Shown here piece by piece: positions 4,004 to 7,000 of a stretch of DNA of 64,000 nucleotides. The stretch lies in NCBI RefSeq assembly GCF_048403405.1, contig NZ_CP183129.1. The stretch is one strand, 5' to 3'. Source of the stretch: Escherichia coli (GTDB lineage: Bacteria; Pseudomonadota; Gammaproteobacteria; Enterobacterales; Enterobacteriaceae). Each line of letters begins with the position of its first letter. Position 1 is the stretch's first letter. Position numbers: made by a program.

Positions 4004-7000
4004 CTAAACTTGAATAAATTCAATGGCTTTATTGGATATCCGCCGAAAAATGAAACGATGGACACCGAAGCCATGGGTGATTAAAGAGGCCGGATTGTAA
4101 TAATTGTACACTCCGGAGTCAATTCTCTTTCCTTATTTACCGCGCTTTTCCGCACCTTTTCGCAGGGAAAATGTACGACCTCACACCAGTGAAAACCAGC
4201 ATGGCGCGCCGGGTGGAGGATTATACGGGCTGACGGGTAAAGCGCAAGGATCGTCCTGGATCTTTATTAGATCGATTAAGCCAATTTTTGTCTATGGTCA
4301 TTAAATTTTCCAATATGCGGCGTAAATCGTGCCCGCCTCGCGGCAGGATCGTTTACACTTAGCGAGTTCTGGAAAGTCCTGTGGATAAATCGGGAAAATC
4401 TGTGAGAAACAGAAGATCTCTTGCGCAGTTTAGGCTATGATCCGCGGTCCCGATCGTTTTGCAGGATCTTGATCGGGCATATAACCGCAGACAGCGGTTC
4501 GTGCGTCACCCTCATGCAGGGTCTTTTCGACGTACGTCAACAATCATGAATGTTTCAGCCTTAGTCATTATCGACTTTTGTTCGAGTGGAGTCCGCCGTG
4601 TCACTTTCGCTTTGGCAGCAGTGTCTTGCCCGATTGCAGGATGAGTTACCAGCCACAGAATTCAGTATGTGGATACGCCCATTGCAGGCGGAACTGAGCG
4701 ATAACACGCTGGCCCTGTACGCGCCAAATCGTTTTGTCCTCGATTGGGTACGGGACAAGTACCTTAATAATATCAATGGACTGCTAACCAGTTTCTGCGG
4801 AGCGGATGCCCCACAGCTGCGTTTTGAAGTCGGCACCAAACCGGTGACGCAAACGCCACAAGCGGCAGTGACGAGCAACGTCGCGGCCCCTGCACAGGTG
4901 GCGCAAACGCAGCCGCAACGTGCTGCGTCTTCTACGCGCTCAGGTTGGGATAACGTCCCGGCCCCGGCAGAACCGACCTATCGTTCTAACGTAAACGTCA
5001 AACACACGTTTGATAACTTCGTTGAAGGTAAATCTAACCAACTGGCGCGCGCGGCGGCTCGCCAGGTGGCAGATAACCCTGGCGGTGCCTATAACCCGTT
5101 GTTCCTTTATGGCGGCACGGGTCTGGGTAAAACTCACCTGCTGCATGCGGTGGGTAACGGCATTATGGCGCGCAAGCCGAATGCCAAAGTGGTTTATATG
5201 CACTCCGAGCGCTTTGTTCAGGACATGGTTAAAGCCCTGCAAAACAACGCGATCGAAGAGTTTAAACGCTACTACCGTTCCGTAGATGCACTGCTGATCG
5301 ACGATATTCAGTTTTTTGCTAATAAAGAACGATCTCAGGAAGAGTTTTTCCACACCTTCAACGCCCTGCTGGAAGGTAATCAACAGATCATTCTCACCTC
5401 GGATCGCTATCCGAAAGAGATCAACGGCGTTGAGGATCGTTTGAAATCCCGCTTCGGCTGGGGGCTGACTGTGGCGATCGAACCGCCAGAGCTGGAAACC
5501 CGCGTGGCGATCCTGATGAAAAAGGCCGACGAAAACGACATTCGTTTGCCGGGCGAAGTGGCGTTCTTTATCGCCAAGCGTCTACGATCTAACGTACGTG
5601 AGCTGGAAGGCGCGCTGAACCGCGTTATTGCTAACGCCAACTTTACCGGACGGGCGATCACCATCGACTTCGTGCGTGAGGCGCTGCGCGACTTGCTGGC
5701 ATTGCAGGAAAAACTGGTCACCATCGACAATATTCAGAAGACGGTGGCGGAGTACTACAAGATCAAAGTCGCGGATCTCCTTTCCAAGCGTCGATCCCGC
5801 TCGGTGGCGCGTCCGCGCCAGATGGCGATGGCGCTGGCGAAAGAGCTGACTAACCACAGTCTGCCGGAGATTGGCGATGCGTTTGGTGGCCGTGACCACA
5901 CGACGGTGCTTCATGCCTGCCGTAAGATCGAGCAGCTGCGTGAAGAGAGCCACGATATCAAAGAAGATTTTTCCAATTTAATCAGAACATTGTCATCGTA
6001 AACCTATGAAATTTACCGTAGAACGTGAGCATTTATTAAAACCGCTACAACAGGTGAGCGGGCCGTTAGGTGGTCGTCCTACGCTACCGATTCTCGGTAA
6101 TCTGCTGTTACAGGTTGCTGACGGTACGTTGTCGCTGACCGGTACTGATCTCGAGATGGAAATGGTGGCACGCGTTGCGCTGGTTCAGCCACACGAACCA
6201 GGGGCGACGACCGTTCCGGCGCGCAAATTCTTTGATATCTGCCGTGGTCTGCCTGAAGGCGCGGAAATTGCCGTGCAGCTGGAAGGTGAGCGTATGCTGG
6301 TGCGCTCCGGGCGTAGCCGTTTTTCGCTGTCTACCCTGCCAGCCGCGGATTTCCCGAACCTCGATGACTGGCAGAGCGAAGTCGAATTTACCCTGCCGCA
6401 GGCGACGATGAAGCGTCTGATTGAAGCGACCCAGTTTTCTATGGCGCATCAGGACGTTCGCTATTACTTAAACGGTATGCTGTTTGAAACCGAAGGCGAA
6501 GAACTGCGCACCGTGGCGACCGACGGCCACCGCCTGGCGGTCTGCTCCATGCCAATTGGTCAATCTTTGCCAAGCCATTCGGTGATCGTGCCGCGTAAAG
6601 GCGTGATTGAACTGATGCGTATGCTCGACGGCGGCGACAATCCGCTGCGCGTGCAGATTGGCAGCAACAACATTCGCGCCCACGTTGGCGACTTTATCTT
6701 CACCTCGAAACTGGTGGATGGTCGCTTCCCGGATTACCGACGCGTTCTGCCGAAGAACCCAGACAAACATCTGGAAGCAGGCTGCGATCTCCTCAAGCAG
6801 GCGTTTGCTCGCGCGGCAATTCTCTCTAACGAGAAATTCCGCGGTGTGCGCCTGTATGTCAGCGAAAACCAGCTGAAAATCACCGCCAATAACCCGGAAC
6901 AGGAAGAAGCGGAAGAGATCCTCGACGTTACCTATAGCGGTGCGGAGATGGAAATCGGCTTCAACGTCAGCTATGTGCTGGATGTTCTGAACGCGCTGAA

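What the first reader, a model, noticed from the sequence alone, without database searches (positions are those of the whole stretch)
4240..4480. dnaA promoter: DnaA box plus GATC cluster intact
The consensus DnaA box (4380-4388) and at least nine GATC sites within about 230 bp reproduce the known autoregulatory and Dam/SeqA-sequestered architecture of the dnaA promoter. It is useful as a positive control that this region is canonical.
Basis: partly seen in the sequence, partly recalled or inferred. Interest (0 to 1): 0.2.

Follow-up and report, generated by a model that had tools for sequence, protein, structure and literature searches.

The report
Canonical E. coli dnaA promoter region
This is the well-known control region in front of the E. 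coli replication-initiator gene dnaA, with its DnaA binding site and nine Dam-methylation (GATC) sites identical to the K-12 reference, so it is ordinary and serves as a valid positive control.

Summary
The window is E. coli chromosome (mnmE-yidC-yidD-rnpA-rpmH on the minus strand, dnaA-dnaN-recF-gyrB on the plus strand). A consensus DnaA box (TTATCCACA, minus strand) lies at 4380-4388. Exactly nine GATC sites lie between 4249 and 4474 (226 bp), matching the published "9 GATC sites within 225 bp". This is the densest GATC cluster in the 64 kb: no dinucleotide shuffle out of 500 reached 9 per 230 bp. Positions 4240-4480 are 100% identical to MG1655. The core 4377-4476 is at least 99% identical in 5422 of 5423 matching E. 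coli genomes. In 110 of 110 Enterobacterales species sampled, the same 9-mer sits upstream of dnaA in the same orientation. The GATCs in the -35 and -10 of dnaAp2 are kept in 107 and 105 species. The function itself was not tested here. The left part of the interval also overlaps the small gene ysdD and a conserved leftward promoter, probably for rpmH. Novelty: already known. A conserved hairpin in the dnaA 5' UTR (4484-4500) was noticed in passing.

The parts
3851..3991 (-). rpmH (ribosomal protein L34), divergent neighbour of dnaA
   Evidence: ORF; RefSeq annotation of identical DNA
4094..4122 (-). Promoter-like site TTGACT-17-TACAAT, probably the proximal rpmH promoter (inferred)
   Evidence: Consensus scan, 10 of 12 matches; assignment to rpmH is inference from position
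4220..4248 (-). Conserved leftward promoter-like site TTGCGC (4248..4243), 17-nt spacer, TATAAT (4225..4220); probably the distal rpmH promoter (inferred)
   Evidence: Read from the sequence. Both hexamers are 82-95% conserved across 110 species while the spacer is variable
4221..4301 (-). ysdD, 26-aa small protein gene; the window allele is H23R relative to K-12
   Evidence: MG1655 annotation b4757 mapped onto the window; K-12 peptide sequence in PMC6001520
4249..4273 (.). GATC sub-cluster A: three sites at 4249, 4259 and 4270, spaced 10 and 11 bp (about one helical turn)
   Evidence: GATC 4249 is conserved in 99 of 110 species
4347..4350 (.). Isolated GATC just upstream of the presumed dnaAp1 -10 (TACACT, 4354-4359; the position of p1 is inferred)
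   Evidence: conserved in 40 of 110 species at aligned columns. The p1 placement rests on my recollection that p1 lies about 82 bp upstream of p2
4380..4388 (-). DnaA box 1, consensus TTATCCACA
   Evidence: 110 of 110 Enterobacterales species keep it at aligned columns; described in the literature as lying between p1 and p2
4401..4409 (-). Second DnaA-box-like 9-mer TTTCTCACA (1 mismatch to TTWTNCACA), candidate 'box 2'
   Evidence: Equating it with box 2 of Speck et al. 1999 is my inference; the original figure could not be read
4414..4419 (.). AGATCT, the ATP-DnaA box motif, overlapping the dnaAp2 -35 region and GATC 4415
   Evidence: motif per PMC8203912; GATC 4415 conserved in 107 of 110 species
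4436..4447 (+). dnaAp2 -10 TATGAT (4436-4441, containing GATC 4439) followed by the CCGCGG discriminator (4442-4447)
   Evidence: description in PMC5835720; GATC 4439 conserved in 105 of 110 species
4452..4474 (.). Three closely spaced GATC (4452, 4465, 4471) just downstream of the p2 start
   Evidence: [quoted passage not shown]
4484..4500 (+).
   Evidence: 96% of cells paired; compensatory CC/GG to UU/AA in 7 of 61 sequences; 0 of 500 shuffles reach the covariation score
4598..6001 (+). dnaA coding sequence, GTG start
   Evidence: Pfam DnaA_N, Bac_DnaA and Bac_DnaA_C

Best explanation
Window 4240-4480 is the regulatory core of the E. coli dnaA gene: promoters dnaAp1 and dnaAp2 with their DnaA boxes and Dam sites. 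The mechanism is established for K-12 in the literature and is inferred for this strain from sequence identity. DnaA binds the consensus box at 4380-4388 and the neighbouring weaker box at 4401-4409. At higher DnaA-ATP levels it oligomerises over the AGATCT site and the p2 -35/-10 and represses transcription, which is autoregulation. When the replication fork passes about a minute after initiation, the nine GATC sites become hemimethylated. [quoted passage not shown] Full methylation of the GATCs in the p2 -35 and -10 also stimulates p2 about two-fold. The CCGCGG discriminator makes p2 sensitive to ppGpp.
For: Position and gene order. Box and GATC positions. Density is far above chance: P = 1.3e-6; 0 of 500 shuffles. 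The interval is 100% identical to MG1655. The 4377-4476 core is at least 99% identical in 5422 of 5423 matching E. coli genomes. Across 110 Enterobacterales species the box is kept in 110 of 110, GATC 4415 in 107 of 110, GATC 4439 in 105 of 110 and GATC 4249 in 99 of 110. In 88 of 110 species at least 7 GATC fall in some 230-nt window of the 450 nt upstream of dnaA, against a background of 4.35 per kb. Published descriptions match feature by feature: PMC5835720, PMC8203912, PMC466948, and PMC2912659 for SeqA ChIP signal at dnaA.
Against: There is nothing against the identification. Limits: no binding, methylation or expression data exist for this strain. dam and seqA are not in the window, so their presence was not checked. 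The literature cited in PMC466948 notes that removing several of these GATC sites leaves initiation synchrony intact, and that the -10/-35 GATCs contribute little to SeqA repression, so the physiological weight of individual sites is modest. The exact transcription starts of p1 and p2 were placed from descriptions, not from primary data.
Confidence: 0.97

Rival explanations
1. The GATC cluster and the DnaA box are chance or compositional features with no regulatory meaning.
For: A single TTATNCACA in 64 kb is within chance expectation (1.87 expected).
Against: Nine GATC in 226 bp was never reached in 500 dinucleotide shuffles, whose maximum was 7. The box is kept in 110 of 110 species and key GATCs in 99-107 of 110, despite otherwise low conservation of the surrounding intergenic DNA.
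Confidence: 0.01
2. The GATC sites are conserved mainly for reasons other than SeqA sequestration. Under this reading they are parts of other elements: the p2 -35/-10 hexamers, the AGATCT ATP-DnaA box, the ysdD coding sequence and the -35 flank of a leftward rpmH promoter. The high GATC count would then be a by-product of those elements.
For: The three best-conserved GATCs each coincide with another element: 4415 with AGATCT and the p2 -35, 4439 with the p2 -10, and 4249 with the -35 flank of the conserved leftward promoter. GATCs 4249, 4259 and 4270 lie inside ysdD. GATCs without such an overlap are less conserved position by position: 4471 in 5 of 110 and 4347 in 40 of 110. Published mutants lacking several GATCs keep initiation synchrony (cited in PMC466948).
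Against: The number of GATCs stays high across genera (median 8 per 230 nt) even where individual positions shift. That pattern is what selection on density would give, rather than selection on particular sites. Delayed remethylation and SeqA-dependent repression of this region are reported experimentally (PMC5835720 and PMC2912659). The two readings are not exclusive.
Confidence: 0.15
3. The DnaA-box and GATC cluster between rpmH and dnaA is a relic of the ancestral origin position and can still act as, or assist, an alternative DnaA-dependent origin.
For: In many bacteria oriC lies next to dnaA in the rpmH-dnaA region. A 2025 paper reports a DnaA-dependent initiation zone, oriK-3850, bordering dnaA in rnhAB mutants, and speculates that the dnaA-promoter boxes take part (PMC12000880).
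Against: I did not look for an AT-rich unwinding element or an array of phased boxes, so this reading was not tested here. The paper's link to these boxes is explicitly speculative.
Confidence: 0.05

Closest known systems
E. coli K-12 dnaA promoter region (dnaAp1/dnaAp2; Hansen et al. 1982, as reviewed in PMC5835720)
   Same: Identical sequence over 4240-4480. Same gene neighbours. Same box, the same nine GATC sites, and the same discriminator and AGATCT motif.
   Different: There are three SNPs elsewhere in the intergenic region (4192, 4234, 4515). The one at 4234 changes YsdD His23 to Arg.
E. coli oriC
   Same: A combination of DnaA boxes with roughly ten-fold GATC enrichment, and SeqA sequestration after replication (PMC5835720).
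   Different: oriC lies about 42 kb away (PMC12000880) and is outside this window. This region drives transcription of dnaA, not replication initiation, and is reported to be sequestered for a shorter time (about 1/5 against 1/3 of a doubling time).
mioC promoter
   Same: A promoter repressed by DnaA-ATP through one consensus box plus several closely spaced weaker boxes (PMC4585315 and PMC5835720).
   Different: The mioC promoter is reported as not sequestered. It is a different locus.
dnaA promoter alleles of other E. coli lineages (O157:H7 F8492, NCTC9022)
   Same: The same architecture, with all nine GATC sites and the box retained.
   Different: These lineages carry AAG to TCA at 4374-4376, which creates a tenth GATC five bases from the DnaA box. 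The window carries the K-12-type nine-site allele.

Membership tests
E. coli-type autoregulated dnaA promoter | Lies immediately upstream of dnaA, divergent from rpmH | tested here: met
   rpmH 3851-3991 (-) and dnaA 4598-6001 (+)
E. coli-type autoregulated dnaA promoter | Consensus 9-mer DnaA box TTATCCACA between the two promoters | tested here: met
   4380-4388 (-). It lies between the p2 elements (4413-4447) and the inferred p1 -10 (4354-4359). It is kept in 110 of 110 species
E. coli-type autoregulated dnaA promoter | Additional weaker DnaA sites, including an ATP-DnaA box AGATCT, upstream of or overlapping p2 | tested here: met
   TTTCTCACA at 4401-4409 and AGATCT at 4414-4419. Naming them box 2 and box a is inferred
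E. coli-type autoregulated dnaA promoter | p2 has GATC in both the -35 and the -10, followed by a CCGCGG discriminator | tested here: met
   GATC 4415 and 4439, TATGAT 4436-4441, CCGCGG 4442-4447, against the description
E. coli-type autoregulated dnaA promoter | Sequence identity to the K-12 reference | tested here: met
   0 differences in 4240-4480 and 3 in the 606-bp intergenic region
E. coli-type autoregulated dnaA promoter | DnaA represses transcription from p1 and p2 in vivo | not testable with these tools
   Known for K-12 from the literature
Dam/SeqA-sequestered locus | Cluster of closely spaced GATC sites well above background density | tested here: met
   9 in 226 bp with spacings 10, 11, 77, 68, 24, 13, 13 and 6; about 9 times the window density; 0 of 500 shuffles
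Dam/SeqA-sequestered locus | GATC density maintained in related Dam+ SeqA+ species | tested here: met
   Median of 8 GATC in the best 230-nt window across 110 Enterobacterales species, against a background of 4.35 per kb. The lowest counts are in Candidatus Fukatsuia symbiotica, the Nezara viridula Pantoea symbiont and Serratia microhaemolytica
Dam/SeqA-sequestered locus | Host encodes Dam methylase and SeqA | not testable with these tools
   By my recollection neither gene maps to this part of the K-12 chromosome, and only the 64-kb window of this strain is available. Both are expected in E. coli
Dam/SeqA-sequestered locus | Prolonged hemimethylation and SeqA occupancy after fork passage | not testable with these tools
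   Reported for K-12 (Campbell and Kleckner 1990 via PMC5835720; SeqA ChIP-chip in PMC2912659)

The most novel reading that the evidence does not exclude
The region may hold conserved control layers not described in the papers read here. One is a 6-bp hairpin in the dnaA 5' UTR (4484-4500), kept by compensatory changes across Enterobacterales. Another is a 20-nt block directly upstream of the GTG start that is 80-100% conserved across the 110 species (4578-4597). Both could act on dnaA mRNA stability or translation. A third is that the best-conserved left-hand GATC (4249) abuts the -35 of a conserved leftward promoter, so SeqA sequestration might also time expression of the rpmH-rnpA-yidD-yidC operon.
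Probability: 0.2. Interest if true: 0.4.

Novelty: already known. Interest (0 to 1): 0.06.

Why it matters
The value of this finding is as calibration. The first-stage reader placed a known regulatory region and its motifs at exactly the right coordinates from raw sequence alone, and the region is canonical in this strain. The cross-genus survey adds a small quantitative point. The consensus box and the two GATCs inside dnaAp2 are essentially invariant across 110 Enterobacterales species. The other GATCs are kept in number more than in position.

Tried and rejected
The Rfam scan of 3700-4800 at E<=1 gave only a chance viral hit (E = 0.83, 16.7 bits against a 100-bit threshold), so no known RNA family lies there.

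The original sequence paper (PMC553160) is not held. Exact p1 and p2 start sites and the naming of box 2 and boxes a, b and c therefore rest on review descriptions and on my own mapping.

Folding the whole dnaA leader (4449-4640) gave z = -1.48, not significant overall. Only the local hairpin is supported.

Intraspecific divergence could not serve as evidence of selection. The whole stretch 1134-6133 is unusually similar to MG1655 (0-6 differences per 500 bp, against 2.5% over the 26.8-kb aligned block 134-26937), so zero differences in 241 bp is not remarkable locally.

A plain 'ysdD' literature search returned mostly unrelated papers. A narrower search found its source.

A search for a published E. 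coli dnaA 5' UTR stem-loop found nothing relevant. This is weak evidence of absence, because subscription journals are largely not held.

The strain with the identical intergenic region (266917_2) is not the window's strain: elsewhere the two are 93-98.7% identical and differ by insertions and deletions.

Full report
**What is there**

The window is Escherichia coli chromosome. ORFs and RefSeq annotation of matching DNA give mnmE, yidC, yidD, rnpA and rpmH on the minus strand (rpmH at 3851-3991). On the plus strand they give dnaA (GTG at 4598, ending at 6001), dnaN, recF and gyrB. The 4598-6001 product has the DnaA_N, Bac_DnaA and Bac_DnaA_C Pfam domains. The finding's interval, 4240-4480, lies inside the 606-bp rpmH-dnaA intergenic region.

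**Check of the observation**

TGTGGATAA on the plus strand (TTATCCACA on the minus strand) is at 4380-4388, exactly as stated. It is the only TTATNCACA match in the 64 kb. By count alone one such match is expected by chance (mean 1.87), so the count is not the evidence.

GATC occurs at 4249, 4259, 4270, 4347, 4415, 4439, 4452, 4465 and 4471. That is nine sites over 226 bp, against 4.4 per kb for the window. No other place in the window reaches 9 per 230 bp; the second-densest stretch is inside dnaA, with 8. Poisson P is 1.3e-6. In 500 dinucleotide-preserving shuffles of the window the maximum was 7.

**Comparison with the reference and within the species**

Against MG1655, the stretch 3850-4700 differs at three positions (4192, 4234, 4515), none of them inside 4240-4480. 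The 611-bp query 3990-4600 is found in 5424 of 5426 complete E. coli genomes. The 100-bp core from the DnaA box to the last GATC (4377-4476) is at least 99% identical in 5422 of 5423 matching genomes.

The neighbourhood 1134-6133 is in general much closer to MG1655 than the 2.5% average over the 26.8-kb aligned block 134-26937. Within-species identity therefore says little about selection on the promoter in particular.

**Comparison across genera**

A degenerate pattern for DnaA residues 6-16 retrieved 120 Enterobacterales loci, and 110 of them had at least 450 nt upstream of dnaA.

- All 110 have TGTGGATAA upstream of dnaA in the same orientation, 159-398 nt from a GTG start, and it aligns to 4380-4388 in 110 of 110.
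- GATC 4415 is kept in 107 of 110, GATC 4439 in 105 of 110 and GATC 4249 in 99 of 110.
- The other sites are kept in 5 to 71 of 110 at aligned columns.
- The number of GATCs stays high: the median is 8 in the best 230-nt window, and 88 of 110 species have at least 7. The pooled background is 4.35 per kb.
- The lowest counts belong to Candidatus Fukatsuia symbiotica, a Nezara viridula Pantoea symbiont and Serratia microhaemolytica.

**Match to the published anatomy**

Hansen and Atlung (PMC5835720) describe the following:
- two promoters;
- "9 GATC sites within 225 bp";
- a DnaA box between the promoters;
- GATC in both the -10 and the -35 of p2;
- two-fold stimulation of p2 by methylation;
- a CCGCGG discriminator before +1;
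- DnaA-ATP-dependent sites.

PMC8203912 gives TTATCCACA and the AGATCT ATP-DnaA boxes. PMC466948 describes five GATCs at P2: two in the -10 and -35, and three closely spaced ones downstream of the start.

In the window these map as follows:
- AGATCT at 4414-4419;
- TATGAT at 4436-4441, containing GATC 4439;
- CCGCGG at 4442-4447;
- GATCs 4452, 4465 and 4471.

A second box-like 9-mer, TTTCTCACA, lies at 4401-4409. I take it to be box 2, but I could not read the primary figure. The position of p1 (-10 about 4354-4359) is inferred from my recollection that p1 lies about 82 bp upstream of p2.

**Mechanism**

The steps come from the literature on K-12 and are applied here through sequence identity.

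1. DnaA bound at the high-affinity boxes nucleates a DnaA-ATP oligomer that occludes p2 and represses both promoters.
2. After the fork passes, the hemimethylated GATCs are bound by SeqA. Transcription is shut off and remethylation is delayed for about a fifth of a doubling time.

The spacings 10, 11, 24, 13, 13 and 6 bp fit the requirement for closely spaced pairs. The weight of individual sites is modest: published mutants lacking several GATCs keep initiation synchrony (cited).

**Qualification of the interval**

The left third is shared with other elements. The small gene ysdD (26 aa, minus strand, 4301..4221) covers GATCs 4249, 4259 and 4270. On the minus strand, TTGCGC (4248..4243), a 17-nt spacer and TATAAT (4225..4220) form a promoter-like site. 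Its two hexamers are 82-95% conserved over 110 species while the spacer varies. It is probably the distal rpmH promoter, and GATC 4249 abuts its -35. The three best-conserved GATCs each coincide with another element, so part of the positional conservation need not reflect sequestration. The maintained density still argues for it.

**Verdict**

The region is canonical and already known, and it serves as a positive control. Interest is low.

**Side observations**

- A hairpin AACCGC-AGACA-GCGGTT at 4484-4500 in the dnaA leader is kept across genera. In 61 distinct sequences 96% of cells are paired. Compensatory CC/GG to UU/AA occurs in 7 sequences and U-G at the closing pair in 12. No shuffle out of 500 reached the covariation score. 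No Rfam family matches it and no paper was found.
- The 20 nt before the GTG start (4578-4597) are 80-100% conserved in 110 species.
- Other lineages (O157:H7, NCTC9022) carry a tenth GATC at 4372.
- dnaA itself holds 15 GATCs between 5251 and 5926, consistent with reported SeqA binding across the gene.
- Relative to MG1655 the window has an IS200-like insertion at 35172-35878 and several other insertions. These include a giant inverse-autotransporter gene (iatC-like) from about 52.7 kb onward.

Noticed in passing
window 4484-4500 (+): Hairpin AACCGC-AGACA-GCGGTT in the dnaA 5' UTR, about 35 nt downstream of dnaAp2. It is conserved across Enterobacterales, with compensatory CC/GG to UU/AA changes in 7 of 61 distinct sequences and 96% of cells paired. 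There is no Rfam match and no paper was found.
   Followed up: partly
window 4578-4597 (+): The 20 nt directly upstream of the dnaA GTG start (TTGTTCGAGTGGAGTCCGCC) are 80-100% identical in 110 Enterobacterales species. That is more conservation than a GGAG Shine-Dalgarno needs. A small local hairpin partly covers the SD in the MFE fold.
   Followed up: no
window 4220-4252 (-): A conserved leftward promoter-like site: TTGCGC, 17-nt spacer, TATAAT. The hexamers are 82-95% conserved and the spacer is variable. GATC 4249 directly abuts the -35. It is probably the distal rpmH promoter, so it may be sequestered together with dnaA.
   Followed up: partly
window 4221-4301 (-): The small protein gene ysdD (26 aa) overlaps three of the nine GATC sites. 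The SNP at 4234 makes the window's allele H23R relative to K-12, which is why some RefSeq records call it 'hypothetical protein'.
   Followed up: partly
window 4372-4376; L123 and L124: E. coli O157:H7 F8492 and NCTC9022 carry a three-base block change, AAG to TCA, at 4374-4376. It creates a tenth GATC five bases from the DnaA box. The window has the K-12-type allele.
   Followed up: partly
window 5251-5929: A second GATC cluster lies inside the dnaA coding sequence: 15 sites, 10.7 per kb, up to 8 per 230 bp. Other Enterobacterales have a median of 8 per dnaA gene (5.5 per kb against 4.2 per kb in the flanks). This is consistent with the published SeqA ChIP signal across the whole gene.
   Followed up: partly
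window 35172-35878: A 706-bp insertion, absent from MG1655 and from strain 266917_2, lies between ivbL and istR/tisB. It encodes an IS200-like Y1 transposase (Pfam PF01797, E = 3.8e-38).
   Followed up: yes
window 52725-64000: DNA with no counterpart in the K-12 interval searched (3,815,000-3,889,000). It aligns at 93-96% to the iatC gene (an 11-kb inverse autotransporter adhesin with about 291-nt internal repeats) next to eilA in strain 266917_2.
   Followed up: partly
window 26937-27430, 31920-31969, 38196-41575, 50606-51449: Further differences from MG1655. There is extra sequence at the glvG pseudogene site. The 593-bp K-12 segment that contains yidI has no match in the window. There is a 3.4-kb insertion between ilvN and uhpA, where two hypothetical proteins are annotated in strain 266917_2. 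There is also an 0.8-kb insertion that carries a RelE/ParE toxin and an HTH gene in strain 266917_2's annotation.
   Followed up: no
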